From Chloroflexota bacterium (GTDB lineage Bacteria; Chloroflexota; Dehalococcoidia; Bin125): a stretch of 64,000 nucleotides of DNA. The stretch covers positions 18,154 through 82,153 of the forward strand of contig JAPPJZ010000082.1 in NCBI GenBank assembly GCA_028874365.1, written 5' to 3'. The notes beneath the pieces were generated by a model. The model was given only the letters and a program-made list of their open reading frames with translations, had not been told where the DNA came from and made no database searches. Positions within the stretch are counted from its first letter, which is position 1. The number at the start of each line of letters is the position of its first letter. The position numbers and the translations under genes were made by a program. Positions 18,646 to 53,300 of the stretch are shown here, piece by piece.

Positions 18646-18690
18646 GAATCCTACAGATGTGTGAGCAGCACGTGTACCACAATGCAGAAT
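18646..18690 (+). repeat. Degenerate copy A of the att-like boundary motif
   Basis: GAATCCTACAGATGTGTGAGCAGCACGTGTACCACAATGC resembles GAATTCACTACGTGATGGTGGGCCATCGTGTACCAAACTGC at 32.44 kb, with gaps. Confidence 0.4.
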
Positions 18691-18731
18691 CGGTCAAGTG
18701 CAGCACCAGATGGACTCATCTTCCGGCTGAC

Positions 18732-18750
18732 ACATTTCGGCAACATTTCG
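18732..18750 (+). promoter_or_regulatory. OmpR-type tandem direct repeat
   Basis: ACATTTCG at 18732 and 18743 (11-bp period), upstream of an operon containing an OmpR-family regulator. Confidence 0.55.
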
Positions 18751-18797
18751 TCTCGATGGTGAGTGTCAACGCAGCATCTTCATGAAAGGAGCGCGCA

Positions 18798-19907
18798 ATG
18801 ACACTCGCGAAGCTGCTCAAAAGGACCGTCATAATCGGTCCAATCCTGGGAGCCGTGGTCGGTGGAGCAGTCCTGATCGGCTGCGCCTCCGGAGCGGACG
18901 ACGGCCGCAACAACGAACCGGCCGTGGCCAGCCAGGAAGCGTCCGAACAGAGAGAAAGCGATTCGAGAGGAGAACACGATCGAAACCGGGAACAGAGCCG
19001 CGAAGCCGGCGGCGAACATGGCAACGGCGGCGAATCCAGCCGCGAGAGCGGCCAACACAACGAGGCGCGCGAGCGCGGTGCTGAGTCCGGCGCCGCCGAC
19101 GGCGGCGAGGCCAGCAGCGCCGACGCGCTCACTCGCGACGCCACGTTCGACGAAGTCCGCGGCGGCGCCCGACTGGTCCTCAAGTTCGACGATGCATCGA
19201 ACTCGTTCCGCGGCATCGTCGAAAACACCAGCGACCGCGTCCTGACTCGGGTTCGGGTCGAAGTCCACCTCGACAACGGGGCCGAGCTCGGCCCGACGAC
19301 GCCGACCGACCTCTCGCCGGGCGAGACGCTCGACATCGTCCTCCCGTCGACGCCGGAGACATTCAATTCCTGGACCACCCACGCCGAGGTCGGGAGCGGT
19401 GAAGGCGGCGGCGAGCACGGCGAAGGCGGCCGTGAGAGCCGCGAAGCCGAGATGTCGAGTCCGATCACACCGCTCAACGAACCCTGGAGCGGCGTGCTCG
19501 GCGGCATCGCCGTGGACGCGAGCTTCGACACAGCGACGGGGACGATGTACACGACCGTCCGCAACACCCTCGACGAAACGCTCTGTTTCGTCCAGTCGGA
19601 GCCGCACCTGAAGTCCGGTACGCGAACCGTGGGCGAGCTGGGACCCGACGTGATCGGCGACCTCGCGCCGGGACAAGAGGTGACCACCAGCATCTCGGTG
19701 GACAGTGAACCAGGGCTCGCGGACGTCTCGTTCGACGGCTACGTGGTGCACCTCGAAGTCTTCGACTGCAACGGTCCCGGCCCGCAACCTCACTCGGGTG
19801 AAGGCCGCGAGTCATCCGGCAAGCGCGAGGCCGGCGAGCAGCACGGCGGCAATGGCGAGTCCGGAGGCGAACACGGCTCCCGCGGAGAGCGCGGCGGCCA
19901 CGACTAG
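18798..19907 (+). CDS. Putative lipoprotein with two FxLYD/Ig-like domains and Gly/Glu/His/Arg-rich repeats
   Basis: AAAGGAG RBS; LIGC lipobox; two VxNT...E.HL..G..ELGP...DLxPG repeats; EHG-rich linkers. Confidence 0.8.
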   Translation: MTLAKLLKRTVIIGPILGAVVGGAVLIGCASGADDGRNNEPAVASQEASEQRESDSRGEHDRNREQSREAGGEHGNGGESSRESGQHNEARERGAESGAADGGEASSADALTRDATFDEVRGGARLVLKFDDASNSFRGIVENTSDRVLTRVRVEVHLDNGAELGPTTPTDLSPGETLDIVLPSTPETFNSWTTHAEVGSGEGGGEHGEGGRESREAEMSSPITPLNEPWSGVLGGIAVDASFDTATGTMYTTVRNTLDETLCFVQSEPHLKSGTRTVGELGPDVIGDLAPGQEVTTSISVDSEPGLADVSFDGYVVHLEVFDCNGPGPQPHSGEGRESSGKREAGEQHGGNGESGGEHGSRGERGGHD

Positions 19908-20030
19908 GACGGGCCTCGCCAGGCGCATCAGCGGGAGCTGCAAGGAATACAATCCGCGCAGTTCCGACTCAGCGGACGCGGCGCCCTCGCCGGGCGTCGC
20001 GTCCTGGCGGAGCCGACGCAAGGAACGACG

Positions 20031-40727: not shown

Positions 40728-41633
40728 GATAGCGAAGCAAAGTCAACTCAACAGATGTCGTTCCAGAAACTCGCCGACCACTTGATTGAAGACTTCCGGC
40801 CGCTCCCAGTACACGGAGTGACCGCAGCCTGCGACTTCAACGTACTCGGATCCCGCTGTTTGCTCATGCACCATGCGGACCGCCTCCGGATAGACGATCT
40901 TGTCTTGATCACCAACCAGGAACATCGTGGGCGCCATGAGTGCCTCAAGATCGTCCGTTCCAATACGAATGCCAGTCGGCATGTATCTCATATTGGAACG
41001 CGATTTGGTCAAGTTAAACGACAACCACTCCGGCAGGGGGAAGTTCTCGAAATTGAGTCTAATTCGCATCAGCAGCGCCATGGCAGGTTCGCGATCGGGA
41101 TAGTCCTCGGCATAGGCCCGATCGAGCCCCGGGATGTCGCGGGTCCGTTCGTCATGCTCTTCAATCACGCTGTGCAGCTCCGGCCAATCCAGATCCCCCA
41201 CGCAGTCACACATCACCAGCGCCGATACGCGGCCAGGATTTCGAACCGCGAAGCCAAGAGCAGTCCATCCACCCATCGATTGCGCGATGAGGGCTGCGCG
41301 TTCGATGCCAAGTCGGTCCAGTAGCACCTCAAGGTCGTCGACGAACCGGGTTGGCCCCTCTTGCTCCGGATCTGTCGACGCGCCGAAGCCTCGGTGATCG
41401 ATCACGATGCAGCGAAAGTGTCTGCTGAAATGCGGGATCTGCTGAAACCAGGCGATCTGCGTTCCACCGCCCGCTCCGTGTAAGAAGACGACCGGGGGAC
41501 CCTCTCCATACTCTTGGTAGTGCAGGTCGATGCCGTTGAGCTGCTCGGTTGGCATGGCGAAGTATCCCGATCTAGGAGTGAGCACAACTGCGGTCTGGAC
41601 CGAAGGTAGCAATCCCGGTTTTGCTTCGCTATC
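40728..41633. mobile_element. Single-gene segment bounded by a perfect 14-bp inverted repeat
   Basis: GATAGCGAAGCAAA at 40728-40741 and TTTGCTTCGCTATC at 41620-41633. Confidence 0.55.
40743..41555 (-). CDS. Alpha/beta hydrolase
   Basis: HGAGG, DHRGFG, AQSMGG, GHSVYWE; start taken at MPTEQL. Confidence 0.9.
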   Translation of the reverse strand: MPTEQLNGIDLHYQEYGEGPPVVFLHGAGGGTQIAWFQQIPHFSRHFRCIVIDHRGFGASTDPEQEGPTRFVDDLEVLLDRLGIERAALIAQSMGGWTALGFAVRNPGRVSALVMCDCVGDLDWPELHSVIEEHDERTRDIPGLDRAYAEDYPDREPAMALLMRIRLNFENFPLPEWLSFNLTKSRSNMRYMPTGIRIGTDDLEALMAPTMFLVGDQDKIVYPEAVRMVHEQTAGSEYVEVAGCGHSVYWERPEVFNQVVGEFLERHLLS

Positions 41634-41843
41634 TCGGAGACTCCGCTACGGGCGATGAGAGGGTGTTCGCAGTGAGCCCGCCATGAGAAGTGTGAAGACC
41701 GCGCAGTGTCGGAGGCGATGAGGGCTCACGACTGGAAGACATGCCGGTTGCTCGCTTGGCCTGCAATCGAATCATCGGCCGATCACGCTGACCGAGCAGT
41801 CGACAGTCACCGACCTTCTACACGCATTAGCGTATGACGCGAG

Positions 41844-43367
41844 ATGTCAGACCGCATTCGCAGCGTGGTAGTCGTCGGTGGAGGAAGCGCCGGGTTCCTG
41901 GCAGCTCTGACCTTCCGACGTATGCTGCCCCGGATCAAACTCACGGTCGTCCATTCGCCCGAGATCCCAATCATCGGGGTGGGCGAATCAACCACCGGCC
42001 GAGTGCCCTTGCACCTGCACGAATCGCTGCGCATCAGCCGTGACGAGTTCCACCGGCAGGTTCGGCCGAGTTGGAAGCTGGGACTTCGTCTGGAGTGGGG
42101 CGCCGAGGACGTGCCCCACTTCAACTACTCATTCGATCGCTATCTCGAGAGACACGTGCCCGGTCTCGACAAGCGGGCTGCGTTTTACTGCCTGGCGGAT
42201 CCCAGGGACTGCAGCGTCTTCAACGCGATGATGGACCGGGCCCGATCGCCCGTCACGCTGGAGGGGCGACAATTCGCCATCGACCCCCGCGCGGCGTATC
42301 ACCTGCCCAACAAGCGCTTCGTCGAGTACTTGCAACGGCAGTCGCGCGAATCAGGCGCCGCGCTGATTGAGGACGAGGTGCAGGATGTGGTGCGGGCAGA
42401 GTCGGGTGAAGTCGAGCGTCTACGGCTAAAGAGCGGGCGCGAGATCGCGGGCGATCTGTTCATTGACTGCTCGGGCTTTCGTTCATTGCTACTCGGAGAG
42501 ACGATGGGCGAGCCCTACTTGAGCTATGCCGACACGCTGTTCTGCGACCGAGCCATTATTGGCTCCTGGCAGCGCTACGACCGGATCCTGCCCTATACGA
42601 CGGCCTCGACGATGGACCACGGCTGGGCCTGGCGGATAGACTTTCCCGATGTTGTCACTCGGGGATACGTGTTCTCCTCCGCCTTCTGCTCCGACGAAGA
42701 AGCGGCGCAAGAGCTACGGGCCAAGAACCCCGAACTGGGCAATGACTTGCGAGTGCTCGCATTTCCCAGCGGCCGCTATGCGCGCCATTGGGTCCGGAAC
42801 GTCGTCGCCGTGGGCAATGCCTCGGGGTTCGTCGAGCCCCTGGAGGCCACCGCCCTCCACCTGATCGTCGAGCAGCTCTACAAACTCGCCGACGGGCTGA
42901 TCGACTCGGACGCAATACCTACTGCCGAACTACGCGATGTCCTCAACGAGGCTTTTCAGATCGGCTGGGACGACGTGCGCGACTTTCTGGCGCTGCATTA
43001 CCGGTACAACTACCACGCGAACACGCCATTCTGGCGCCACTGTCGCGCGGAGACATCGCTGGGTGGAGCTTCGGCGCTGGTCGAGGCCTACGAGCGCCTG
43101 GGGCCGTCGCTCCTACTGAAGCGGCTGATCGAAGGCGAGTACTTCGAGTACGAGGGCTACACATCCATGCTGGTCGGCCTGCGCGTACCCACTGCGGCAC
43201 GGCGAGAACTCTCCAGCGACGAGGCCGCGGCATGGGCCGCGTATCAACGAGGAGTTCGCAACTCGGCCATGAGAACGATGCCGATGCGAGAAGCGTTGGA
43301 GCGCGCCCACGGCGCGGCGTCTGGCGCGCAGACCCGTGCCGAGCGCCGTCGACAGGCCCGCAACTGA
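41844..43367 (+). CDS. Flavin-dependent halogenase (tryptophan 7-halogenase family)
   Basis: GGGSAG, IGVGEST, catalytic-position Lys in SWKLG, FIDCSGF, WAWRI, FVEPLEAT. Confidence 0.93.
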   Translation: MSDRIRSVVVVGGGSAGFLAALTFRRMLPRIKLTVVHSPEIPIIGVGESTTGRVPLHLHESLRISRDEFHRQVRPSWKLGLRLEWGAEDVPHFNYSFDRYLERHVPGLDKRAAFYCLADPRDCSVFNAMMDRARSPVTLEGRQFAIDPRAAYHLPNKRFVEYLQRQSRESGAALIEDEVQDVVRAESGEVERLRLKSGREIAGDLFIDCSGFRSLLLGETMGEPYLSYADTLFCDRAIIGSWQRYDRILPYTTASTMDHGWAWRIDFPDVVTRGYVFSSAFCSDEEAAQELRAKNPELGNDLRVLAFPSGRYARHWVRNVVAVGNASGFVEPLEATALHLIVEQLYKLADGLIDSDAIPTAELRDVLNEAFQIGWDDVRDFLALHYRYNYHANTPFWRHCRAETSLGGASALVEAYERLGPSLLLKRLIEGEYFEYEGYTSMLVGLRVPTAARRELSSDEAAAWAAYQRGVRNSAMRTMPMREALERAHGAASGAQTRAERRRQARN

Positions 43368-43415
43368 CCCGATTCAGGCACAAGTGGATGGCCCTCGGCG
43401 GGGCCGCGTCCCTGA

Positions 43416-43460
43416 TTGACAAGCCAAAATCGACTCGTGATACTTGCGCATAACTGCAAG
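43416..43460 (+). promoter_or_regulatory. Sigma70-type promoter with overlapping inverted repeat
   Basis: TTGACA-N17-GATACT; CTTGC-N8-GCAAG at 43443-43460. Confidence 0.6.
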
Positions 43461-43495
43461 CTCCGCTATTTGGCATTAGCAGCGAGAGATCTGAC

Positions 43496-45349
43496 ATGAA
43501 CGAGCGCAACTATTGGACAAGACTGAGTCGGCGGAAGCTCTCGCGACGCACCCTGTTGAGAGCCAGCGCCAGAGCAGGCGTCGGCGCCGCCGGCCTGGTG
43601 CTGGTGGGCTGCGGCGACGATGATGACGACGACGGTGCGCAACCCGCCGCCGCTCAGGCTCAACAGCAACAGCAAGAGCAACAGGCGCCGGCCGCGCAGC
43701 AACAGACGCAGCAAGAGCAACAGGCGGAGCAGGCAGCTCAGCAAGCCGAGCAACAGGAACGACAGCAGCAGGCCGCACAGCAACAGACATCTCAACAGCA
43801 GCAGCAGCAGCAGCAAGCACAGCAACAACAACAGCAGCAGGCGCAAGCGGTACAGGCCGCCCCCAGTTTGCCTCGCGGTGGGATCGTCAAATACGGCGCC
43901 GAGAATGAACTGATCGGTCAGAGCGGCATGGATCCCTCAACGGCCCTCACCCAATCAGGCCTCTGGCGCGCGATCTATGACCCGCTGATCTCAACGCGAG
44001 CCGACGGCGTCGTTGACCTCGATGCCTCGCTCGCCGAAGCCTTCGAGGCGGTAGACGACACCACGATCGTGTTCACCCTGCGCGATGGTGTGACGTTCCA
44101 CGATGGCACGAGCTTCGACGCCGAGGCTGCCAGGTTCAACCTTGACCGCGCGGTCGATACCAGCATTCCCGCTGGCGGAGTGTATGCGGCGGCGTTCTCG
44201 GTAATCGAGTCAAAGGACGTGCTCGACAGCAACACCCTGAGATTCACTCTCACCGGACCCAATGCGGCGCTGCTGACGAATCTGCAAGAGCGTGGCGGCA
44301 TGATGGTCTCCCCGACCCACATAGAAGCGACGTCCCTGGAAGATCTGCGCGTGCAACCGGTCGGCACAGGTCCCTACCGACTCGATATCTGGGAAAACGA
44401 GAAGTCCACGGTGCTGGTTCCGTACCAGGACAGTTGGCAGCGACGCGAAGACGGCGGGCCCTATGCCCTGCTGGACGAGTTCCACTACGTAGTGATCCCT
44501 GATGCGGTCGTTCGGGCCGCAGCGATCGAGTCGGGAGACGTTGATACCTTCGTGGCCCCGGACAGCCAGGTTGGGCTGCTATTGGACAATGACGATCTCA
44601 CCTCCGTGGTGCGCAAGGGGTCCCTGCACCTCTCCTGGTGGGTGAACCATGAGCTGTATCCGGCGAACAACGTCGATTTCCGCCGGGCGCTCATGCACGC
44701 CTGGGATAAAGAGGGCGCCCGTGAAGTCTTCTACGAAGGCCGCGCTGACCTGGGCACCGCAATCCTGTCCAACGGGAACTGGGCGCATGCTCCGCAGGAG
44801 AACTTCCCGACCGAGTTCAACATGGATAAGGCCGAGGAGTTGTTGGTCCAATCGGGCATTCCGGAAGAGGACTGGGAGATTCCGATCACCGCCGCTTGGG
44901 CCGGCGCCGAGCCGATGTTCCAGGCCCTGGCAGGGAGTTGGGAGCAACTGGGCGTGCGTGTCATCCCGGCCACCTACGAGGAAGTCCAGACACGTCCCTG
45001 GGCCAATCGAGGGCAGGCGGCAGATCTCCACATCTTCAGCCAGGGCGGCGACCGTGGCGAACCCGATACCTTCCTGCAATTGGGACTAACCGAGAAGGGA
45101 ACCTGGAACCTGGGCGGTGGACCTGTGCCTGAAGTCGAAGGCCTCGTCCAGGACGCGGTCTCCACCTATGACACCGAGGAGCGCCGAAGGATCTACGCGG
45201 AGATCCAGGAAATCCAGGCCGATCTCTTGTACAGCATCCTGCCCGGGCTGTACACGCCTCGCTACTTTTTCAGCCGCAACAACGTCGGAGGCGCCCAATT
45301 CGACTTGAACGGGTTTGAATGGTTCAAGGAGTTGCACCGGATCTCCTAG
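43496..45349 (+). CDS. Family-5 solute-binding Tat lipoprotein with polyQ linker
   Basis: SRRTLL, LVGC, two Q8 runs, FHDG, GTGPY. Confidence 0.93.
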   Translation: MNERNYWTRLSRRKLSRRTLLRASARAGVGAAGLVLVGCGDDDDDDGAQPAAAQAQQQQQEQQAPAAQQQTQQEQQAEQAAQQAEQQERQQQAAQQQTSQQQQQQQQAQQQQQQQAQAVQAAPSLPRGGIVKYGAENELIGQSGMDPSTALTQSGLWRAIYDPLISTRADGVVDLDASLAEAFEAVDDTTIVFTLRDGVTFHDGTSFDAEAARFNLDRAVDTSIPAGGVYAAAFSVIESKDVLDSNTLRFTLTGPNAALLTNLQERGGMMVSPTHIEATSLEDLRVQPVGTGPYRLDIWENEKSTVLVPYQDSWQRREDGGPYALLDEFHYVVIPDAVVRAAAIESGDVDTFVAPDSQVGLLLDNDDLTSVVRKGSLHLSWWVNHELYPANNVDFRRALMHAWDKEGAREVFYEGRADLGTAILSNGNWAHAPQENFPTEFNMDKAEELLVQSGIPEEDWEIPITAAWAGAEPMFQALAGSWEQLGVRVIPATYEEVQTRPWANRGQAADLHIFSQGGDRGEPDTFLQLGLTEKGTWNLGGGPVPEVEGLVQDAVSTYDTEERRRIYAEIQEIQADLLYSILPGLYTPRYFFSRNNVGGAQFDLNGFEWFKELHRIS

Positions 45350-45421
45350 GCACATCCCGGTCCCGGATCTCTCCCCTCTTCGGCGGGGCGGGGCTCGACG
45401 CAGTCCGCATAGGGGTTGAGC

Positions 45422-46384
45422 GTGAGCAAGTTCATCCTGGCTCGGCTCCTTCAAGCACTGCCCGTCCTGTTCCTGGTCTCAATACTGACCTTCGCCGGAC
45501 TTGAGTTGGTCCCGGGCGATCCGTTGCTCGCCGTGATTGGGCCCGCACAGGACGGTACCCAGCTCAGCGCGGAGGACGTTGAACGAATCAAAGAACAATT
45601 CGGTCTGCATGGCTCGCTACCGGAGCGCTACTTTCGTTACGTCGAACAGGTCATTCTGCACTTCGATTTCGGTACCTCGCTGCAATCGCAAGAACCGGTG
45701 ACCAGGGTCATTGCCGATCGAATGCCGGTCTCGCTCTGGCTCAACGGCCTCGCGCTCGGATTGAGCATTGTGTTGGGACTGACGCTCGGTCTGCTCGCCG
45801 GGGTGCGGCCGGGAACCCGCGGCGATCTGGGCGTCACGTTTCTGGCCGTCGTCGGGGTAGCCGCTCCGAGTTTCTGGCTTGCCATTGGTTTGATCATTCT
45901 GTTCTCGGTCGAGCTCGGATGGCTGCCTACCTCAGGCTGGGTCAATCCCACTTCCGACCCCTGGGAGGCCGCGAAACACCTGGCGATGCCCGTCTTCGCG
46001 CTCTCTCTGGGCGGCGTCGCCGTGATCGCACGACAGACGCGCTCGTCCGTCTTGGAGATACGCCGACAGGACTACATCGTGACCGCGCGGGCCAAGGGTT
46101 TGACCAGCAGCGCGGTTCTCATTCGCCATGTACTGAAGAACTCGATGCTGCCGGTGGTAACCATCATGGGCCTGCAGTTCGCCGCCCTGTTCGGCGGTAG
46201 CGTGATCATCGAGCGGCTGTTCGCACTACCAGGACTGGGCCGCCTCGCATTTGACGCGACGCTCGCGCACGACTTCAAGATTCTGCAGGGAATCGTCTTC
46301 CTCGTCACGCTCGTCGTGATCGGGGCCAATCTGCTCACCGACATCGTCTACGGCATGCTCGATCCACGGATTCGATACCAATGA
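45422..46384 (+). CDS. ABC permease (DppB-like)
   Basis: PGDP, DYIVTARAKGL, DPRIR. Confidence 0.93.
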   Translation: MSKFILARLLQALPVLFLVSILTFAGLELVPGDPLLAVIGPAQDGTQLSAEDVERIKEQFGLHGSLPERYFRYVEQVILHFDFGTSLQSQEPVTRVIADRMPVSLWLNGLALGLSIVLGLTLGLLAGVRPGTRGDLGVTFLAVVGVAAPSFWLAIGLIILFSVELGWLPTSGWVNPTSDPWEAAKHLAMPVFALSLGGVAVIARQTRSSVLEIRRQDYIVTARAKGLTSSAVLIRHVLKNSMLPVVTIMGLQFAALFGGSVIIERLFALPGLGRLAFDATLAHDFKILQGIVFLVTLVVIGANLLTDIVYGMLDPRIRYQ

Positions 46385-47271
46385 CCGTCCGCGAACAACC
46401 GACTGCGTCGCTGCCCCGGTTCCGGCATCTGCAGGTGCCCACCAGCATCAGGGTGTTTCTGCACGATCCCAAGGCCCAGGTCGCAACGATCATCCTGCTG
46501 GTCGTCATCTTTTTCGCGGCCTTCGGCCCGGCGATCGCCCCATTCGGCGAGAACGAGCAAAATCTCCGGGCAAGTCTGGAGGGGCCATCCTGGACCCACC
46601 TGCTGGGTACGGATCAACTCGGGCGCGACATCCTCAGCCGCGCGATGTACGGCAGCCGCGTGTCCGTCAGCGTGGGACTGATCGTTGTCGCGATCGCGGC
46701 GGCTGTGGCACTGCCAATCGGGCTCAGTTCCGGGTACTTCGGAGGCTGGGTCGACGCGGTGCTGATGCGATTCGTCGACACCTGGATCTCGATCCCGCCG
46801 ATCATCCTCATCCTGGCCATCGTGGCGATCGCCGGCACGAGTCTGGGGAACGTCATGCTGGCGATCGGGCTGGCCAGTTTCCCGGTCTTCTCTCGCTTGC
46901 TGCGCGCCCTGACGTTGTCGCTCAAGGCGCAGGATTTCGTCACGGCCGCCCGCTCCCTCGGGGCCTCCGATTTGCGCATCCTGATCCGGCACATCCTGCC
47001 CAACACGGTGCAGCCCTTGATCGTGCAAGGCACGCTACTGGTGGGAGTTGCGGTTCTGGCCGAGGCCGCGCTTAGCTTCCTCGGCTTCGGTGCGCAGCCG
47101 CCTCAGGCCACCTGGGGCAACATGATCGCCGAGGGCTTCCCCGTGATTCGCCATAGCTTGTGGCCCACCATCCTGCCAGGCGCGCTGATCATGCTGTTCG
47201 TGCTGGCGGCTAACTTCATGGGCGACCGCCTGCGTGACGTCCTAGACCCGCGTCTACGGGGCAGCCTCTAA
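46381..47271 (+). CDS. ABC permease (DppC-like)
   Basis: HLLGTDQLGRD, HILPN, GDRLRDVLDPR. Confidence 0.93.
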   Translation: MTVREQPTASLPRFRHLQVPTSIRVFLHDPKAQVATIILLVVIFFAAFGPAIAPFGENEQNLRASLEGPSWTHLLGTDQLGRDILSRAMYGSRVSVSVGLIVVAIAAAVALPIGLSSGYFGGWVDAVLMRFVDTWISIPPIILILAIVAIAGTSLGNVMLAIGLASFPVFSRLLRALTLSLKAQDFVTAARSLGASDLRILIRHILPNTVQPLIVQGTLLVGVAVLAEAALSFLGFGAQPPQATWGNMIAEGFPVIRHSLWPTILPGALIMLFVLAANFMGDRLRDVLDPRLRGSL

Positions 47272-47307
47272 CCATCGTCTCACCCGTGCAAGAACCAGGA
47301 GACTCCG

Positions 47308-48099
47308 ATGCCCAAGACCCTCAATGTCAGCGGCGCCAGCTTGATCTACGACGAGTTTGGAGATGGTCCCGACACGATCGTGTTCGTCCATGGGGCCGGC
47401 GGAAACCATCTCAGCTGGTGGAACCAGATTCCTCACTTCAGTCAGCGATTTCGCTGTGTCACCTATGAGGTCCGCGGCTGGGGACAGAGCCAGGACCTGT
47501 CCAGCGAGGGCCGTACCGCATTCGCCCGTGACCTCGGAGAGTTGATGAATCAACTGGAGATTGCCGAAGCGGCGCTGGTTGGTCAGTCGATGGGCGGCTT
47601 TTCAATTCTGCCTTACGCAGTTCGCAATCCCGACCGGGTGACAGCGCTGATGATGGCCGACACAATGCTCGGTATTGGCGACCAGGGACTGCTCGACGAC
47701 ATGCGGACGGCAACCGCCGCGGCAGCCGAGAATGCGCGGCTCGGCGGGATGACCCGCATGGTTGGCCCGGCCTATCTTGAGCGCTCGCCTGAAGGCGTCT
47801 TCCTCTACAACCAGGTCCGAGCGCTGAATCCGCCTCTGGACCTCGATCGACCGTTGTCGTTTGGCATCGAGGATGGCGCCATTGCGGTCGAAGATCTGTC
47901 AGCGCTGACGATGCCAGTCTTGTTCCTGGCCGGCGCCGAAGACGCGATTATCCCCGCCGCTGTAATCGAACGGGCCGCTGCGATGGTTCCCGGCGCTCAC
48001 TACGTCGAGATCCCTGAGGGCGGACACTCCGTCTACTGGGAGCTTCCCCAACAGTTCAACGCCGCTCTCGGGGAGCTGTTAGCCGTGGCCTATTCCTAG
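47308..48099 (+). CDS. Alpha/beta hydrolase, paralogous to 40743-41555
   Basis: HGAGG, QIPHFS, GQSMGG, GHSVYWE. Confidence 0.92.
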   Translation: MPKTLNVSGASLIYDEFGDGPDTIVFVHGAGGNHLSWWNQIPHFSQRFRCVTYEVRGWGQSQDLSSEGRTAFARDLGELMNQLEIAEAALVGQSMGGFSILPYAVRNPDRVTALMMADTMLGIGDQGLLDDMRTATAAAAENARLGGMTRMVGPAYLERSPEGVFLYNQVRALNPPLDLDRPLSFGIEDGAIAVEDLSALTMPVLFLAGAEDAIIPAAVIERAAAMVPGAHYVEIPEGGHSVYWELPQQFNAALGELLAVAYS

Positions 48100-48303
48100 C
48101 CTTGTCATCGAAGTTGCCCGATGAGTCAATGACGAACAGAAACTCGGAAGGCCTCAGTTCCACTCTGCAGCTTATGCAGCTCCTTGCCGACTTACTGTCC
48201 CCTGCGCTCCCAGGGTTCACGCATCGGGCCTCGCCCTAACCCGCGCCTAACGCACAAGAGCCGATCAAGATCGGAAATCGTTGCACGTAGCTCAACCAGT
48301 AGT

Positions 48304-48343
48304 TGGTGGGCGAAACGCTACCGAACTGCGAACTTTTGAGTGG
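48304..48343 (+). repeat. att-like boundary motif copy D
   Basis: TGGTGGGCGAAACGCTACCGAACTGCGAACTTTTGAGTGG; last 25 nt are 23/25 identical to 53276-53300. Confidence 0.8.
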
Positions 48344-48520
48344 CAAGTGCCGCTTTGAGCGCTAAGAACAAAATGGTCACTAAACAGGATGTTGCACCCA
48401 CAATCTTCGTCCGGTAGAGCTGCGCTGTTCCATCTAGGTCGTCATATTGCATCAGGTGGAAACTGCCAAGCGGCTTCACGAGTCATTGCTGCGATCACCA
48501 CGCCCTGTCGGTTGCCCGCG

Positions 48521-50374
48521 TCAAGCCCGAATCCCGGCCTCCTTGAGGAACTGCGACGGTTCCGCATGGCGCTCGCCGTATCTAGTGCGCCTGCGCTGCG
48601 GCCACGTCAGGAGCAATGTCCGCGACGCCCGGGTCACTGACACATAGAAGGCTCTTCGCTCGTTTTCGAGATCTGATTCGTTGTCAATTGAGCGGTAGTC
48701 GGGGAACGATCCTTGGGTCAGACCGACCACGGCCACAGCCCTAAACTCAAGACCCTTCGATTGGTGCGTTGTCAAGAGTCGGATGCCAGGCTCGTCAGGC
48801 CGCGTCTGCTGAACACGCAGTAGGAACCGAAGCAGTCCTAAGCCGCTTCTTTCCTGAGCATGGGTGCTCGCGCGATACTCGGCCCACCAAGCGAGCAATC
48901 GATCCAGGTCCGGGCCGTGAAAGTACTCACCGGTTGCGATAGCGCTCCTCACAGCATCAAGACCCTCTCCGTCGAGGTTGCTTCGGCCTATCAGGTCAGC
49001 AATAGGGAGTATGGGAGTATTGGAGACCGTCGCACAGAGTTGACTCAGGGTCCGATCACCTTCACCGATACCGGAGTATTCGTCCACCAGGTTGAACAGC
49101 TCGTCGTCAATGCGCCTCCAAGCCGGCTGGTTTCGTTCGTTCACCCCTACTTCTAGAAGCGCAAGGAAGAGCCTGGCTTCTGGAGTCGCAAGTAGGCTCT
49201 CAGCGTCGACCCGAAGTGACAGGCCGTAGCTCCGCTTTTCCAGTTCCTGCTGAACGTCGTCAAGCGCATACCTTGTTCGAGCGATCACGGCGATGTCTTC
49301 GGGAGCAAGCTGGTTCCACTCCCCAGGCACCAGGCTTGAAGAATCGATGCCGCTTTGCAGTAGGTCGTCAATCCAACTGACTACGACCTGAGCCTCTTCA
49401 GCTGAGTCCTCGGCCTCGGCTGCGCAGACCGAGCCCGGGGGGGTTCCAGGCGGCGTGATGGCATCGGTTCTGGGAGGAGTGAAGTGATTCGCGACCTTAC
49501 GAGCCAGAGATAGGATCTGAGTTGCGCACCTGAAGTTGTTCTGGAGTTCGAACTCCGCAGATCCTGGTCCTGCGAGCTTGCGTGCCCACTTGATATCCCC
49601 GCCAGCCCAACCATTGATCGACTGTCGATCGTCAGCGACGACGAACAGCCCCACGGAATCAGCGACAATCTCTCGCAATAGGGAAGACTGGGCCTGTGTC
49701 AGGTCCTGTCCCTCGTCTACCAGAACGTGGCCATACGTCCGCCTAATCCTCCTTAGGACTGATGGGTCCAACTCGAAGAGCTCCAGAAGCTTTGTCAACA
49801 TCCCTGCGAAGTCGATCCCACCTGCATCGTCCATGGCTGTCAGGTAGGCGCCATAAAGTTCGGGTAAGCGGAGGGACAGTGGGCCAACGACCTCGTTCGG
49901 CGCGTCTTCTGGCGACACGAGAGCGGTACGCATTGAGTCGATGCGGCGCAATGCATCGAGCAGGACCGGCTGGTCTGGATACGGCTCCCCGACCGAATCA
50001 AGAAACCTCCGTAGCAGATCCACCCGATCTCGCGGGTCTGCATAGACGACCACGTCTGGAGCGACGCCTACTGCTCGACCGGATCGATGCAGCCAATCCA
50101 ATGCGAATCCGTGAATCGTGTCCGCATCGACTCTCCAAGCCTCTTCCCCGATGGATTGAGTCACTCGAGCCTTCAGCTCGCCCGCCGCCTTGACGGTGAA
50201 AGTGACCGCCAACACACGGAATGATTGGCCTCGACTCTCATCGAGCAATCGTTCAATCCTCCGAATCAACACCTCTGTCTTGCCACTGCCAGCCGGAGCA
50301 AGGACCAGACTCTTGCTGGCTGTCGAGTTCACTGCGGCTTGCTGGTCTGGCGTTAGGTGAAGTGGCGAGGCCAT
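48521..50374 (-). CDS. UvrD/Rep SF1 helicase (GajB-like partner)
   Basis: APAGSGKT, VDEGQD, ADDRQSI, NNFRC, HQSKGLEF, YVSVTRA. Confidence 0.92.
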   Translation of the reverse strand: MASPLHLTPDQQAAVNSTASKSLVLAPAGSGKTEVLIRRIERLLDESRGQSFRVLAVTFTVKAAGELKARVTQSIGEEAWRVDADTIHGFALDWLHRSGRAVGVAPDVVVYADPRDRVDLLRRFLDSVGEPYPDQPVLLDALRRIDSMRTALVSPEDAPNEVVGPLSLRLPELYGAYLTAMDDAGGIDFAGMLTKLLELFELDPSVLRRIRRTYGHVLVDEGQDLTQAQSSLLREIVADSVGLFVVADDRQSINGWAGGDIKWARKLAGPGSAEFELQNNFRCATQILSLARKVANHFTPPRTDAITPPGTPPGSVCAAEAEDSAEEAQVVVSWIDDLLQSGIDSSSLVPGEWNQLAPEDIAVIARTRYALDDVQQELEKRSYGLSLRVDAESLLATPEARLFLALLEVGVNERNQPAWRRIDDELFNLVDEYSGIGEGDRTLSQLCATVSNTPILPIADLIGRSNLDGEGLDAVRSAIATGEYFHGPDLDRLLAWWAEYRASTHAQERSGLGLLRFLLRVQQTRPDEPGIRLLTTHQSKGLEFRAVAVVGLTQGSFPDYRSIDNESDLENERRAFYVSVTRASRTLLLTWPQRRRTRYGERHAEPSQFLKEAGIRA

Positions 50375-50376
50375 GG

Positions 50377-52188
50377 TTACTCCTCCTCAACCGCAGGGCC
50401 TGGTTCAAGGGAGACTGGGCTGGCGAGACTTAGAGCGCCCTTTACTCGATTCGCCAGATCAACGATAGGCGGCGGAGCTTGCTTACGGTTACTCACTGCG
50501 GCTCGAGCAACCAGTTCGCCAGACCAGCCCTTCGTGTCAGCCAAGAATCCCAAGTAGTCCGACTGGAATTCAGGCGCGTACGCCGGCAGCCGTGGCTGGC
50601 CTGCCCGGGGATCAGGGGGTTGCCACGAGGCGTGTTCGTTTGCGACCATCTCAACCTCGTGGTGGTAGCCCGCATCCAGGAGCAACTGCTCTAGCTGTTT
50701 CGTCCCGCTCATCACGACCTGGGGATGCGCTTCTGACAGTGGAGCCCCGTCCGAACCAAAGCAGCCCTTGATCGAATTGAGGCCATCCGAGTCGTTGTCG
50801 ACAAATGCGACCCAAGGAATCCTGCCGAGTTCTTCCAATGCCTCGATGACCTTTCTCAGCCACTCTTGGGATTGCCCCTGCATGTCGAGGAGTGTCACGC
50901 CGAGCCCGCCCACATCACGATCTAGCAGAGGATCGAGTAAAACAGGAATCGTCGCCCGCTCTGCGGCCCCGTCAACAAGAATCACCAGCCTCGCGAAGAA
51001 CAATTCTCCCAAGGGGCGCGAAATGAACCTTCGGAAGACGGCGACCTTTCGGGCCGTTTCACGGGACAAGGTAGACACAGAGGTTCCTTCACCCGCCGAG
51101 CGGATCAATCGGATCGCAGGGAGATCAGCTTCTCCAACCAACACGTTGGAGTGAGTGGCAACAACGGCCTGCCCCTGCAAGGACTGAATCGAATGATGCA
51201 CGGCCGCCTGCGCTTGCGGGTGCAGGTGCGCCTCCGGCTCTTCCAGCAAGGTCACGAGGTGCGGACGGATACCTTGATCGACGCCGATTCTGAGTTTGCA
51301 TAGCGCAAAGTAGACCCGCAGCGCTGCCAGGCTGCGGCTGCCTGATCCTTGGAGGCGGATTGGGAGGGACGGACCGTCGTTCCCGCCGCCAATCACCACG
51401 TCGACGGAATGGATCAAGTCCTCTATTCGTTCGGGGAGCGGACGAATCTCGACATGCTCAATACTCGACTGCGCACCCCTCATCTCCAGCAACTCTTCCT
51501 CAAGAGCGCCGAGCGTTGGACTTGCCTGACGCAAAGAGCTTCCTAAACCCCCCAAGCGCTCTTCTAGGTCTTTGCGAGCCGATTCGGAGATTCCGAGCTC
51601 AGCGAGGACCTGTCCCCAGTTCGAAGTACGTCGCGCCAAATCGGAAGAGAGATCGCGGGATGCCTCGACCACATGTGCTGACAGTAGTTCCATCACCTGC
51701 CTGCTTGGGACCAGGTTAGATTCCTGCCAATCTCGCTCTGCCTCAACCCATGTCAGGTACCTGCGCGTCCAGGAAAGGAAAGCTGACTCTTGGCTTGGCT
51801 GGAGGATCATTCGGATCGCAGTCCATTCTCCTCCGCCCGGCCGGTTCCCGTAGTTCCCATCCAATCTCTGCGCAACGACTTCGGAAAACTCCTGACCGGA
51901 AGAGCGGAGCACTAGGTCAATGGTTGCCTCGTCAACGACTGAATCTGAAGTGCGATGCAAGTCGTCTTGCATGGGCCTATGAAAGCCGCAGGCGGTCGCA
52001 ATCGCCAGCAAGATGGACGACTTGCCAGAATTGTTCTCCCCCACGAGAAACGTCGTACCTCTCTCAAGAGGTATCTGCGCGTCAACGATGCTCCTGAAGT
52101 TTGCAACTCGAACCTCTTCAATCCACAGGTCCGCGACAGGTCCTGTTGTGAAGGGATTCCCATCCGGTGTTGACTCAAGGTTTGGCAT
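50377..52188 (-). CDS. OLD-family ABC-ATPase/TOPRIM nuclease (GajA-like)
   Basis: NFRSI, GENNSGKS, GSG, EEPEAHLHP, ATHS, TOPRIM-like LVDGxxE and DND. Confidence 0.9.
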   Translation of the reverse strand: MPNLESTPDGNPFTTGPVADLWIEEVRVANFRSIVDAQIPLERGTTFLVGENNSGKSSILLAIATACGFHRPMQDDLHRTSDSVVDEATIDLVLRSSGQEFSEVVAQRLDGNYGNRPGGGEWTAIRMILQPSQESAFLSWTRRYLTWVEAERDWQESNLVPSRQVMELLSAHVVEASRDLSSDLARRTSNWGQVLAELGISESARKDLEERLGGLGSSLRQASPTLGALEEELLEMRGAQSSIEHVEIRPLPERIEDLIHSVDVVIGGGNDGPSLPIRLQGSGSRSLAALRVYFALCKLRIGVDQGIRPHLVTLLEEPEAHLHPQAQAAVHHSIQSLQGQAVVATHSNVLVGEADLPAIRLIRSAGEGTSVSTLSRETARKVAVFRRFISRPLGELFFARLVILVDGAAERATIPVLLDPLLDRDVGGLGVTLLDMQGQSQEWLRKVIEALEELGRIPWVAFVDNDSDGLNSIKGCFGSDGAPLSEAHPQVVMSGTKQLEQLLLDAGYHHEVEMVANEHASWQPPDPRAGQPRLPAYAPEFQSDYLGFLADTKGWSGELVARAAVSNRKQAPPPIVDLANRVKGALSLASPVSLEPGPAVEEE

Positions 52189-52644
52189 CGTGGGAGCTCG
52201 GCCTCCTGGGTACACGCTCGGCATTCGAGTTCTCGCTGTTGTCCGGTTTCCCGAGAGGCAATCGACCTTCAGGCTACGTCGTTTCGGGGCCAGGGAAGCG
52301 AGTCCGCAGCGACATAGGCCCCGCTGGGGGAGACTCCGCCTGCGTTCCTCCAACTCCATCTTGGAACGATCGACACCCGAGAGAAGGAGGCATTTGGGTC
52401 GAACAGACGCAGACGCCGACGAGGTTGGCGATGGGTTGGACTATGCAACGCTAGGTGTGGAGGGTTTCGACCGTCACAGACAAGTGTCTCTTCGAACCTG
52501 TACAGTCAGTCCGCCGTCAGACCATCGCCGGCACTCTCGCGGCGCATCGGACACAGGACTCTCCGCGCCAAGTCTCCGAGGGTCGGTGCAGAGTGACCTC
52601 TCCTGACCGCTCACTGCAGCAGATGTCTGGTCGCACCGCAACCC

Positions 52645-53115
52645 TCAGTCTTTGATCGCCGGGATCGGAACACTGGGCGGATTGACCGCCGAACGCGGAG
52701 AAACAGGTATCGGATAAACCTCTAGCCACTCTCGACCGGTGATCGACTGGGAGCCGTTTCGCACTGTCATCGCGATCATTTCCTGATGCACTTCCAGTGC
52801 ACCGTATCGAAAGGGCCGTCCAACGGGAGATTTGCCCGCCAGCCGAAACACCTGAGCCCACAGCACGCCGAGATCGTGTGGAATCTGCTTCGCTTCATAG
52901 GCGTCCGCGAGCTCGTCGAAACGAGCCTCGAGCTCGATGAGCGCCGGCTCGGTGGCGAAGAGGTCGATTTGGTTCGCCACCTCGTTCCTCTCGCGGCGCG
53001 CTCGAACGGCGCGTTGAAGCCTGAAGCGTTGTCGACTGACTGGGGCGGTGTTCCAGATCGTGATCAGGGCGACAATAGTGGCTCCTACTGAGCCCAGCAC
53101 CACTAGCACCGTCAT
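52645..53115 (-). CDS. Hypothetical protein with N-terminal TM
   Basis: GGAG RBS; MTVLVVLGSVGATIVALITIW; 156 aa. Confidence 0.6.
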   Translation of the reverse strand: MTVLVVLGSVGATIVALITIWNTAPVSRQRFRLQRAVRARRERNEVANQIDLFATEPALIELEARFDELADAYEAKQIPHDLGVLWAQVFRLAGKSPVGRPFRYGALEVHQEMIAMTVRNGSQSITGREWLEVYPIPVSPRSAVNPPSVPIPAIKD

Positions 53116-53223
53116 GACTCGCTCCAACCGACGGAAGACTCCGGCAAAACAGGCTTGCATTGGCCAGCGTAAGGGGCCCATCATCCGGCTCAAGAGCGCA
53201 GACTGCAGCGCGCGCCGGCTCGG

Positions 53224-53300
53224 CTCAATCAGTTCGCAGTTCGGTACGTCTAGGTCCGAAAAGTGGGCAGTCGTGTACTGAACTGCGAGCTTTTGAGTGG
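53224..53300. repeat. att-like motif copy E: full attP-like inverted repeat
   Basis: AGTTCGCAGTTCGGTAC (53231-53247)-N27-GTACTGAACTGCGAGCT (53275-53291); 15/17 symmetric. Confidence 0.8.

What the first reader, a model, noticed from the sequence alone, without database searches (positions are those of the whole stretch)
18646..53300. Recurrent tRNA-end-like att motif divides the accessory region into recombinase-less cassettes
Seen: co-oriented intergenic copies of GTGGGC-N7-TACc/tNAACTGCGAa/gCT at 32451, 48306 and 53263, all with 17 nt between GTGGGC and CGAa/gC (B vs E 24/29; D vs E 23/25 in the distal part), plus degenerate copies at 18661 and 40523. The clear copies and copy A fall where gene content changes: core | TCS and metal uptake | halogen catabolism | OLD+UvrD | CHAT/REase/helicase. 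No integrase or transposase is recognisable in the window. Known: TGGTGGGC is the reverse complement of 3' ends of Val/Ile/Lys-type tRNAs, where CGAAC (T-loop) follows GTGGGC after 11 nt. Large serine recombinase attP arms carry the distal motif about 5 bp further out than attB arms; the shift here is 6. Inference: serial integration at one tRNA left junction sites, giving an integron-like array of 5-16 kb cassettes mobilised in trans and carrying both metabolic and defence cargo.
Basis: partly seen in the sequence, partly recalled or inferred. Interest (0 to 1): 0.85.

Follow-up and report, generated by a model that had tools for sequence, protein, structure and literature searches.

The report
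Serine-recombinase att sites bounding tandem islands
The repeated motif is one half of the attachment site of a serine recombinase that inserts gene islands at the ends of tRNA genes, so its copies mark the seams between islands stacked one after another, a mechanism already described in related bacteria.

Summary
The motif is real. Three co-oriented copies lie at 32451, 48306 and 53263. Copy 40523 is a degenerate but genuine site. Copy 18661 is not supported.

The genome holds only 10 solid copies. The motif occurs in 20 of 24 same-genus genomes and in 0 of 16 from other genera.

Each copy is TGGT[GG]GCC, which is the reverse complement of the tRNA-Met 3' end, followed by 9 nt and a 16-nt arm. 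At 32421-32479 a mirror arm completes a roughly 59-bp dyad site shaped like a large-serine-recombinase (LSR) attP.

In complete relative G006, four co-oriented copies lead to an LSR gene. Its 3' end runs through arm and core into a minus-strand tRNA-Met. In this genome contig C43 ends, 36 kb right of the window, in an LSR N-terminus. tRNA-Met and tRNA-Ala sit at contig ends followed by the arm.

Of 40 homologous LSR genes checked, 31 abut a tRNA. Cassette borders (Gabija; halogenase/ABC module) fall at the core in other genomes and metagenome contigs.

This is a new member of a known kind: Dehalococcoides ssrA/tRNA islands and SCC-like arrays. Mobilisation of the recombinase-less cassettes in trans remains unproven.

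The parts
32383..32447 (+). Relic of the 3' end of an LSR gene, including the P-type left arm (32421-32443, with a 7-nt insertion). The recombinase gene itself is gone.
   Evidence: In the LSR frame it translates to ..IQNSLRDGG, against ..VRNSVRDGG in intact LSR-A genes. The arm is similar to the one next to tRNA-Met in G006. The ORF upstream is an SBP_bac_5 gene on the other strand.
32448..32504 (+). Copy B. Core TGGT[GG]GCC, central GG at 32453-32454. A 9-nt spacer, the arm at 32464-32479, and a conserved extension to about 32504. Together with 32421-32447 it forms a complete dyad, attP-like site.
   Evidence: (nhmmer E 1.1e-14).
32505..40472 (.). Cassette A: SBP plus two permeases, a hydrolase, a luciferase-like monooxygenase and an acyl-CoA-dehydrogenase-like gene. 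No recombinase.
   Evidence: Pfam. The same module is 85-91% identical inside the G006 array at 1604631-1612977. It lies at other places in G018, G002, G024 and G023.
40473..40539 (+). Copy C, degenerate. 'U' relic, core TAGTGGGCC (GTGGGC at 40523), and a right arm truncated after TACC.
   Evidence: relic translates to ..NSRVLALRKFSG. Homology of module B in six other genomes starts about 200 nt to its right.
40540..48302 (.). Cassette B: two alpha/beta hydrolases, a flavin-dependent (Trp-type) halogenase, and an SBP plus two permeases. No recombinase.
   Evidence: Pfam. It is present as a unit (window 40737-48124, 82-85% identity) in 6 other genomes, with att-type sites at its borders in 3 of them (G021, G023, G024).
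48303..48359 (+). Copy D. Core (TTGGTGGGC 48303-48311), arm 48319-48334, extension. The left side has no recognisable arm.
   Evidence: E 6.9e-17. A 9571-nt contig of run X4 matches 42968-48311 and then runs on unlike the window.
48521..52359 (-). Gabija pair: GajB (UvrD helicase, 48521-50374) and GajA (OLD/ATPase-TOPRIM, 50377-52359). This is the cargo of the 4.9-kb unit between copy D and the inverted half-site.
   Evidence: Pfam. PADLOC gives GajA 4.7e-81 and GajB 8.1e-91. The same unit is 83% identical in G015 directly after a motif copy, in a different neighbourhood. X3 contigs cover only 48319-53260.
53231..53262 (-). Inverted half-site. Arm 53231-53246 on the minus strand, 9 nt, then its own central GG (CC on the + strand). 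It lies head-to-head with copy E, 7 nt between the two centres.
   Evidence: The same head-to-head arrangement occurs in G015, G006 and G021.
53263..53316 (+). Copy E. GTGGGC, arm 53276-53291, extension. It is the left end of the last unit, the one that bears the recombinase.
   Evidence: E 1e-11.
53317..64000 (.). Start of the terminal unit. It holds a CHAT protein, a PDC-S37/Hhe-like helicase-nuclease and other genes. It continues beyond the window through a Replic_Relax protein, KAP NTPases, a type I R-M system and an IS1595 transposase. It ends at the LSR N-terminus at C43:100187, which would be window coordinate 82034.

Best explanation
The motif is the core plus the element-side (P'-type) half-site of the attachment site of a family of large serine recombinases (LSRs) specific to Dehalococcoidia.

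Site anatomy (read off the sequence): a full site is [16-nt arm]-9 nt-GG-9 nt-[16-nt inverted arm]. The segment around GG, TGGTGGGCC, is the reverse complement of the CCA 3' end of tRNA-Met. The recombinase gene lies at the right end of its element, and its last codons are written across the left arm and the core.

Integration (inferred): integration at a tRNA 3' end leaves core plus right arm at the element's far (left) end. It leaves LSR, left arm and core fused to the tRNA at the near end.

What the window shows (inferred from the anatomy): a stack of such units added one after another at one tRNA, most likely tRNA-Met. Only the unit next to the tRNA (53263 to C43 end) keeps its recombinase. 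The inner units (about 8, 8 and 5 kb) have lost theirs. They keep only a 40-65-nt relic of the LSR 3' end, which is the left arm, beside the next unit's core and right arm.

Status of the steps:
- Shown: the site anatomy, the link to LSR genes and tRNAs, and module borders at the core.
- Inferred: crossover at the central GG, origin of the array by accretion plus deletion, and possible excision or exchange of recombinase-less units by the LSRs. At least four partial LSR copies are assembled in this genome.
For: Copy number and spread:
- 10 solid copies in 3.12 Mb.
- Found in 20 of 24 same-genus genomes and 0 of 16 genomes of other genera, with 0 hits to the reversed control pattern.
- All 80 printed rows of a scan of 185,579 species genomes are Chloroflexota/Dehalococcoidia MAGs.

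Anatomy:
- A dyad site lies at 32421-32479.
- In G006 the order is LSR (Resolvase, Recombinase, Zn_ribbon_recom), then left arm, then CGTGA, then TGGTGGGCC running into tRNA-Met on the minus strand. The ORF overlaps the tRNA by 58 nt.
- The G006 array has co-oriented copies at 1561938, 1586711, 1593745 and 1619382, then the LSR at 1642668 and tRNA-Met at 1644260.

This genome:
- C43 ends in MQQPTESTPAALYARVSSDRQDIDLSV.
- Its last 55 nt equal those leading out of C63. C63 holds two more co-oriented copies pointing at that end.
- tRNA-Met (C11) and tRNA-Ala-GGC (C16) are each followed by the arm and an LSR 3' end, and then the contig ends.

Links to tRNAs and to LSR genes:
- 15 of 20 LSR 3' ends examined in the genus abut a convergent tRNA, and 16 of 20 in other families of the class. 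Twelve anticodons are represented.
- 25 of 35 motif copies on large contigs have a co-oriented LSR within 135 kb downstream. Only 3 have one upstream. For opposite-strand LSRs the counts are 3 downstream and 0 upstream.
- 7 of 116 sites have an intact LSR ending exactly at the site.

Arm spacing: GAAC of the arm lies 6 nt further from the centre than GAAC of the tRNA T-loop.

Borders at the core:
- X4 contig matches up to 48311, and an X3 contig up to 53260.
- G015 has the Gabija unit directly after a copy.
- Module B lies next to tRNA-Ala in G024 and next to an LSR plus a full site in G023.

Relics: the left-side relics translate to LSR C-termini.
Against: - No recombination was observed.
- The LSR gene itself is not assembled in this genome. 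Only N- and C-terminal pieces sit at contig ends. The join C43 - LSR - tRNA is therefore inferred from 55-nt overlaps and from synteny with G006.
- Internal junctions have two element-type arms (attP-like). Canonical LSRs do not recombine such pairs.
- Some module borders in this region carry no site (about 15050, 18290 and 22170).
- In 3 of 6 other genomes module B has no recognisable site at either border.
- 10 of 35 copies have no co-oriented LSR within 135 kb.
- The conserved 25 nt beyond the arm (+29 to +53) is more than a minimal LSR half-site needs and is unexplained.
- Genomes of one genus are kin, so the counts overstate independence.
Confidence: 0.8

Rival explanations
1. The copies are inert scars. 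They are att relics of long-dead integrations. The modular pattern among genomes would then come from homologous recombination between the 55-120-nt repeats and from ordinary deletions, not from present-day site-specific exchange of recombinase-less cassettes.
For: Inner junctions are attP-like pairs that canonical LSRs do not recombine. Copy C is truncated and copy B's left arm carries a 7-nt insertion. Module A in G006 is not bounded by sites. Module B has no sites in G018, G001 and G052. No joint listed in table 5 spans a cassette.
Against: The right half is conserved at nearly every position from 0 to +53 in 109 sites whose flanks are unrelated. The 'U' relic keeps the same extent of about 50 nt beside different cargo in 43 of 116 sites. 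That is hard to obtain from independent random deletions. Breakpoints fall within a few nt of the core rather than anywhere in the repeat. This rival concerns only current activity. It accepts the att-site identity.
Confidence: 0.35
2. The motif is the terminal inverted repeat of a non-autonomous transposon (MITE-like or IS-derived). The Gabija unit would then be a composite transposon bounded by inverted copies at 48306(+) and 53259(-).
For: An inverted pair flanks the Gabija genes. Copies lie at contig ends, as repeats do. Module B in G021, G023 and G024 also has an inverted arm at its far end.
Against: Most copies are co-oriented, not inverted. I saw no target-site duplication in the junctions printed (read by eye). 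No transposase lies beside the copies. Inverted arms are what any integrated element with a dyad att site has. The core is shared with tRNA 3' ends, and LSR genes end in it.
Confidence: 0.04
3. The motif is a REP-like element, a transcription-factor site or a small structured RNA or terminator that merely tends to sit between operons.
For: The copies are intergenic. The conserved stretch extends 25 nt beyond the arm and includes a GGGAGG-like run.
Against: There are only 10 copies per genome. No Rfam family matches. RNAalifold gives -1.24 kcal/mol with no covarying pair. My two hand-drawn stems pair in 57.6% of cells, against 53.7% in shuffles. Downstream genes run in either direction. Orientation is tied to LSR genes.
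Confidence: 0.03

Closest known systems
Dehalococcoides ssrA-specific genomic islands (DsiB serine recombinase) and tRNA-associated islands of the high-plasticity regions. PMC3146451 and PMC2764846; I read passages found by term search, not the whole texts.
   Same: Same class of bacteria. Tandem islands lie downstream of a tRNA-like gene and are bounded by the gene or a direct repeat of its 3' end. A roughly 540-aa serine recombinase gene has its 3' end overlapping the att site and the target gene. Some islands lack the integration module and were proposed to be cis-mobilisable through accretion. [quoted passage not shown]
   Different: Here the targets are ordinary tRNA genes: Met, Ile, Ala, Val and Glu in this genus. 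The host is an uncultured sponge-associated lineage. The cargo is defence (Gabija, type I R-M) and halogenase/ABC genes rather than reductive dehalogenases. No DsiA-like small recombinase or six-gene integration module was looked for. Homology of this LSR to DsiB was not tested, because no DsiB sequence was available to me. The recurring unit described here is the 54-nt element-side half-site plus an LSR 3' relic, not only a 20-58-bp gene fragment.
Staphylococcal SCC / pseudo-SCC composite arrays and the enterococcal cassette chromosome (CcrAB serine recombinases at rlmH). Recalled from memory. For PMC6222049 I saw the search listing only.
   Same: Serine recombinases. Elements are stacked in tandem at the 3' end of one conserved gene. 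Some units lack recombinase genes and are thought to be moved by recombinases of neighbouring units.
   Different: The target is a protein-coding gene and two recombinases act together. Here there is a single LSR type per unit, tRNA targets, and a recombinase ORF that crosses the site.
Phage large-serine-integrase att sites (A118/LI, Bxb1, phiC31, SPbeta). The geometry is recalled from memory.
   Same: An imperfect dyad site of about 50 bp around a central dinucleotide. The distal motif lies further out in the element-side half-site than in the host-side half-site. The shift observed here is 6 nt.
   Different: Known phage LSRs mostly target protein-coding or intergenic sites. The Islander abstract (PMC4383910, listing only) credits tRNA-gene integration to tyrosine integrases.
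Integrons
   Same: An array of co-oriented recombination sites separates units of cargo, with one recombinase gene at one end.
   Different: There is no tyrosine IntI and no folded attC-type site. The units are multi-gene operons of 5-25 kb with their own orientation. This is an analogy only.

Membership tests
LSR-mediated tDNA islands (Dehalococcoides ssrA/tRNA island type) | A large serine recombinase with catalytic, recombinase and zinc-ribbon domains at one end of the island | tested here: met
   G006 P0001 has Resolvase 5.6e-33, Recombinase 1e-22 and Zn_ribbon_recom 5e-11. It matches the solved SPbeta and TP901-1 integrases. In this genome only fragments are assembled: the C43 end, C63 start, C18 start and C70 end (N-terminal), and the C11 and C16 ends (C-terminal).
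LSR-mediated tDNA islands (Dehalococcoides ssrA/tRNA island type) | The site shares its core with the 3' end of the target tRNA-like gene, and repeats of it lie co-oriented on the island side of that gene | tested here: met
   The core TGGTGGGCC is the reverse complement of the tRNA-Met end. See the G006 array. 25 of 35 copies have a co-oriented LSR downstream.
LSR-mediated tDNA islands (Dehalococcoides ssrA/tRNA island type) | The recombinase ORF overlaps the att site and the target gene | tested here: met
   The P0001 ORF ends 58 nt inside tRNA-Met. The C-termini ..VR.GGP are written over arm and core in 5 further genes.
LSR-mediated tDNA islands (Dehalococcoides ssrA/tRNA island type) | Homology of the recombinase to DsiB | not tested
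   No DsiB sequence was available. Homologues at 40-46% identity exist in small complete genomes of the class and abut tRNA genes, not tmRNA, in the 11 examined.
LSR att site | An imperfect dyad of about 50 bp around a non-palindromic central dinucleotide | tested here: met
   Window 32421-32479 reads arm, CGTGATGGT, GG, GCCATCGTG, arm. A further perfect example is in L187.
LSR att site | Recombination between attP and attB catalysed by the enzyme, with crossover at the central dinucleotide | not testable with these tools
   There is only indirect support. Homology breakpoints fall at 48311 and 53260 in metagenome contigs.
Recombinase-less cis/trans-mobilisable elements (CIME, pseudo-SCC type) | A unit flanked by att-type sites and lacking any recombinase gene | tested here: met
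   Units 32505-40472, 40540-48302 and 48360-53230 have no recombinase domains.
Recombinase-less cis/trans-mobilisable elements (CIME, pseudo-SCC type) | Excision or transfer that depends on a recombinase encoded elsewhere | tested here: inconclusive
   One contig-level joint 53262->48306 with one extra letter, depth 9.1, appears in run X1. It is shown only in table 5c, not in table 5. It may come from another strain or locus.
Integron | IntI tyrosine recombinase next to attI | tested here: not met
   There is no PF00589 match on C43. The 7 matches in the genome are on C58, C55, C32 and C34.
Integron | attC sites that fold as imperfect hairpins | tested here: not met
   There is no consensus structure and no covariation.
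REP/BIME elements | Tens to hundreds of palindromic copies scattered between genes | tested here: not met
   There are 10 solid copies in 3.12 Mb and 1-9 per related genome.
IS/MITE | Terminal inverted repeats with target-site duplication, and a cognate transposase | tested here: not met
   The copies are mostly direct. No duplications were seen in the junctions printed (read by eye). The only transposase nearby (IS1595, C43:96577-97518) is unrelated to the sites.

The most novel reading that the evidence does not exclude
A recombinase family found across the Dehalococcoidia uses the universal T-loop plus CCA end of tRNAs as a generic host half-site, so it can hop between many tRNA species. 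Twelve anticodons were seen. Its attP-like junctions then act as a cassette exchange system. Recombinase-less units keep a conserved relic of about 50 nt of the LSR 3' end as their own right arm. They are cut out, swapped and re-inserted in trans by resident LSRs. That would give sponge symbionts a serine-recombinase counterpart of the integron for whole operons, including defence systems.
Probability: 0.3. Interest if true: 0.65.

Novelty: new member of a known kind. Interest (0 to 1): 0.45.

Why it matters
- The finding explains how this uncultured sponge-associated Dehalococcoidia lineage assembles its accessory region: metal and peptide uptake, a halogenase module, Gabija, and other defence genes.
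- It gives exact, testable site coordinates.
- It shows that tRNA-targeting serine recombinases, described so far for Dehalococcoides, are widespread in the class. Homologues occur in 67 of 201 sampled genomes and 38 of 137 genera. In 31 of 40 cases examined they abut a tRNA.
- Natural LSRs with a defined site of about 50 bp and a generic tRNA target are candidates for genome-engineering tools.
- The recombinase-less units with conserved arms offer a clean system to ask whether LSRs can move DNA in trans.

Tried and rejected
REP or scattered site: rejected by copy number.

tRNA or other known RNA in the window: none was found.

Structured RNA or folded DNA site:
- RNAalifold found only 4 invariant pairs and no covariation.
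- Two stems I drew by eye, columns 10-14/35-40 and 48-51/58-61, are barely above the shuffles.

Tyrosine integrase or small resolvase beside the copies: none lies on C43, C56, C63, C67, C72 or C79.

Shared sequence beyond the site: BLAST of 3 kb on either side of 20 copies found nothing in common. The only matches were the site itself and orthologous cargo.

Copy at 18661: rejected.

A remnant site at the 22166-22212 junction, where G016 has a copy: none was found.

Reads:
- The joint 53262->48306 in X1 appears only in table 5c and has an extra letter. I treat it as inconclusive.
- Read laying and the look-up of sequencing runs are capped at one call each, so this could not be refined.

The 'U' module as the native host-side flank of a tRNA: rejected. 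It recurs beside unrelated cargo. It has element-type spacing. It translates to an LSR C-terminus.

I did not resolve three things:
- The 25-nt extension of the right arm.
- The head-to-head double half-site.
- The left arm placed one helical turn further out next to tRNA-Ala in G024.

Other limits:
- Supplements of the two papers were not opened. They may hold the DsiB and att alignments that bear on homology.
- Print search for this system in sponge or SAR202 lineages: 0 papers hold 'SAR202', 'sponge' and 'serine recombinase' together.

Full report
OBSERVATION.

With 3 mismatches it also matches inverted at 53231-53259. No match is expected by chance, with 0.00 in 100 shuffles. The window has no tRNA and no Rfam family.

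The window is G000:C43:18154-82153 in a 3.12-Mb, 82-contig, 64.7% G+C genome. A profile built from the copies finds 11 strong hits genome-wide (E <= 1e-11). Two of them, C79 and C25, are the two sides of one copy split by a contig break. That leaves 10 copies: C43 x3, C56, C58, C63 x2, C67, C72 and C79/C25.

The copy at 18661 is not supported. Only 10 of 16 arm positions match, the spacing is wrong, nhmmer gives no hit, and G016 is collinear across it.

ANATOMY.

Conservation among 109 non-identical sites from public genomes runs from the first G of GGTGGGC to about +53 on the right and then falls to nothing. On the left only a mixed signal of about 25 nt is seen.

At 32421-32479 the sequence reads [arm]-CGTGATGGT-GG-GCCATCGTG-[TACCAAACTGCGAACT]. 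The left arm is the inverted counterpart of the right arm, interrupted by a 7-nt insertion. This is a dyad of about 59 bp around a central GG.

The central segment TGGTGGGCC is the reverse complement of the end of tRNA-Met(CAT)..GGCCCACCA. The tRNA-Val and tRNA-Lys(CTT) genes also end in GCCCACCA.

THE RECOMBINASE AND THE tRNA.

In the complete genome G006, four co-oriented copies (1561938, 1586711, 1593745 and 1619382, plus a weak one) are followed by a 549-aa ORF at 1642668-1644317. It carries Resolvase, Recombinase and Zn_ribbon_recom domains. It is also similar to the solved SPbeta and TP901-1 integrases.

Its last codons (..GVRNSVRDGGPGWI..) are written over the left arm, the core and the first 58 nt of a minus-strand tRNA-Met at 1644260-1644335.

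In G000 the gene is a collapsed repeat:
- C43 ends at 100187-100268 in MQQPTESTPAALYARVSSDRQDIDLSV.
- The reverse of the C63 start ends in the same 55 nt, and the C18 start in a 93% similar stretch.
- C70 ends in a 192-aa LSR N-terminus.
- tRNA-Met (C11) and tRNA-Ala-GGC (C16) are each followed by ACACG, the arm and an LSR C-terminal coding stretch, and then the contig ends.
- C63 carries two more copies (36622 and 28327) that point at its LSR end.

C43 shares module A and a later segment with the G006 tRNA-Met array. The C63 copy at 28327 has the same 29-nt motif as the G020 copy that lies 17 kb before an LSR abutting tRNA-Ala-GGC. From this I infer that the window's array ends at tRNA-Met. 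This step is inferred, not seen.

GENERALITY.

The motif occurs in 20 of 24 same-genus genomes and in none of 16 genomes of other genera. The reversed control pattern scores 0 everywhere. All 80 printed rows are Chloroflexota/Dehalococcoidia MAGs, one of them titled SAR202. The runs that hold the window's DNA are labelled sponge metagenome.

Homologues of the LSR occur in 30 of 37 genomes of the genus at E <= 1e-60, with up to 15 per genome. In the class they occur in 67 of 201 sampled genomes and 38 of 137 genera at E <= 1e-40.

I picked 20 high-scoring LSR genes in the genus and 20 in other families and read their 3' ends:
- 15 of 20 in the genus and 16 of 20 elsewhere run directly into a convergent tRNA gene. 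The anticodons are Met-CAT, Ile-GAT, Ala-TGC/GGC/CGC, Val-TAC/CAC/GAC, Glu-TTC/CTC, Asn-GTT and Gln-TTG.
- Four of the five exceptions in the genus, and three of the four in other families, end in a site shared with, or typical of, a second LSR class of about 56% identity. In the genus cases that second gene is convergent.

On contigs of at least 1 Mb, plus G023:C1, 25 of 35 motif copies have a co-oriented LSR of the first class within 135 kb downstream. Only 3 have one upstream. For LSRs on the opposite strand the counts are 3 downstream and 0 upstream (coordinates typed). These genomes are kin, so the numbers are descriptive.

HALF-SITE SPACING.

Counted from the central GG, CGAAC of the arm occupies positions 20-24, both in the right arm and in the LSR-side left arm. 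In the tRNA T-loop it occupies 14-18 (sequences). The element-side arms therefore carry the distal motif 6 nt further out than the tRNA side. Both of us recall that geometry from memory, and I did not check it in a paper.

WHAT LIES LEFT OF EACH COPY.

Among 116 sites, 7 have an intact LSR ending at the site. 43 have a conserved 'U' module of about 50 nt. None of the 34 U sites with at least 1.8 kb of upstream sequence has an LSR ending at the site.

In the LSR frame, U translates to ..NSKVLDFVQFGG. This is the C-terminal pattern of the second and third LSR classes (..ESVLDFVQSGPP and ..SVLSTVKFGG), and similarity stops about 12-17 codons upstream. U is therefore a relic of an LSR 3' end, that is, a left arm without its gene.

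In G000, U also abuts the real tRNA-Glu(TTC) (C27). In the window, 32383-32447 is such a relic of the first LSR class and 40473-40521 is one of the U type. Flanks beyond U and beyond +53 are unrelated between copies.

CASSETTES.

The units are as follows:
- 32505-40472: transport and oxidoreductase genes.
- 40540-48302: halogenase, hydrolases and an ABC importer.
- 48360-53230: Gabija, with GajA 4.7e-81 and GajB 8.1e-91.

None has a recombinase.

Module B (window 40737-48124) recurs as a unit at 82-85% identity in six other genomes:
- In G024 it lies between a degenerate copy and a left arm, core and tRNA-Ala(TGC).
- In G023 it lies between an LSR with a full site and another site shared with a convergent LSR.
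- In G021 it is followed by the head-to-head double site.
- In G018, G001 and G052 no site is recognisable.

The Gabija unit recurs at 83% identity in G015, directly after a copy, with different neighbours on both sides.

Metagenome contigs also break at the core:
- In X4, a different study, a 9571-nt contig matches 42968-48311 and then continues for 4.2 kb unlike the window.
- In X3, another study, contigs cover 48319-53260 only, and one runs on for 4.5 kb of unlike sequence beyond 53260.

These breakpoints lie within the core (GTGGGC is 48306-48311) or 3 nt from it (53263). Not every border fits. Module A in G006 lies 11 kb and 6 kb from the nearest copies. The breaks near 15050, 18290 and 22170 have no site.

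MECHANISM (best reading).

Elements of this family integrate by LSR-catalysed crossover at the central GG between their dyad site and a tRNA 3' end. The tRNA's T-loop and CCA end serve as one host half-site.

Repeated integration next to the same tRNA stacks elements. Each inner junction then has the previous element's left arm and the next element's right arm. The window's array is [relic-core-arm] A [U-core-truncated arm] B [core-arm] Gabija [double half-site] terminal unit ... LSR - tRNA.

Loss of the LSR genes from the inner units left short arm relics. Whether the inner units still move is open. For movement: the uniform extent of the U relic beside varied cargo, the conservation of the right half, and the core-level breakpoints. 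Against it: the attP-like nature of the junctions, the damaged copies B and C, and the lack of a clear circle joint.

WHAT IS KNOWN.

McMurdie et al. 2011 (PMC3146451, passages read) describe tandem islands in Dehalococcoides downstream of ssrA. They are bounded by ssrA or a 20-bp repeat of its 3' end. They carry a 540-aa serine recombinase, DsiB, whose 3' end overlaps the att site and ssrA. Islands without the integration module are proposed there as cis-mobilisable elements that travel by accretion.

McMurdie et al. [quoted passage not shown]

The present case is the same kind of system in another lineage of the class, with ordinary tRNA targets and different cargo. I found no paper holding 'SAR202', 'sponge' and 'serine recombinase' together. 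SCC and pseudo-SCC arrays are a further analogue, recalled from memory.

VERDICT.

It is a good catch, but a new member of a described kind of system rather than a new kind.

Noticed in passing
window 53231-53291; also G015:C30:74671-74732, G006:C1:1593712-1593773 and L149:11170-11253 (G021): Two right-arm half-sites lie head to head, each with its own central dinucleotide, only 7-9 nt apart. The arrangement is conserved in four genomes. In G024 the same left part sits 8 nt from a real tRNA-Ala(TGC), so its arm is about one helical turn further from the centre than in normal sites. The meaning is unknown. It could be an inversion product, a variant site, or a place where oppositely oriented units meet.
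   Followed up: partly
positions +29 to +53 of every copy, e.g. window 32480-32504, 48335-48359 and 53292-53316: About 25 nt beyond the 16-nt arm is conserved across 109 sites (..CTTTYSnnTGGGAGGT..CTnTA..). This is more than an LSR half-site should need. No RNA structure is supported. It might bind an accessory or directionality factor.
   Followed up: partly
G002:C3:1720817-1724094, G024:C1:3441252-3444202, G023:C2:200366-203487 and other loci; L163, L164, L166, L167: LSR genes of two classes, about 56% identical to each other, lie tail to tail with 5-160 nt between them. They share one site. Each gene's 3' end supplies one arm, and the two read the central dinucleotide in opposite senses (GG and CC).
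   Followed up: partly
window 59454-63977 (-) and 53385-56726 (-): A 1507-aa helicase plus REase_MTES_1575 protein matches the candidate defence family PDC-S37 (9.2e-290) and Hhe. Next to it lie a 1113-aa CHAT-domain protein with an N-terminal CpXC motif and a 384-aa ORF of no known family. This looks like a defence island inside the recombinase-bearing unit.
   Followed up: partly
C43:82154-100268 (L011), right of the window: The terminal unit also holds a Replic_Relax-like protein, two KAP-family NTPases, a complete type I restriction-modification set (HsdR, HsdS, HsdM) and an IS1595-family transposase, just before the LSR start.
   Followed up: partly
whole genome G000: No tRNA-Ile gene is assembled, although tRNA-Ile(GAT) is the commonest LSR target in the genus (5 of 20). 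It probably sits behind one of the contig breaks caused by the collapsed LSR repeat, for example beyond the C18 start.
   Followed up: no
window 41844-43367 (+): A flavin-dependent tryptophan-type halogenase (PF04820, 2.6e-102) travels with an ABC peptide/nickel-type importer and two alpha/beta hydrolases as one mobile module.
   Followed up: no
G023:C1 (142 kb record): 60927-70000 versus 138498-130000: The record holds a long inverted duplication. The same U-core-arm sites occur with identical flanks in opposite orientation. This is either a real palindromic replicon end or an assembly artefact.
   Followed up: no
window 15050-22171 versus G016:C1:2967729-2974872, and window 22213-32212 versus G016:C1:2721948-2734739: Two blocks that are adjacent in this window lie 233 kb apart in G016, each followed there by a motif copy. 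In G000 their junction (22166-22212) has no site. The region is therefore also reshuffled by events that leave no att scar.
   Followed up: partly
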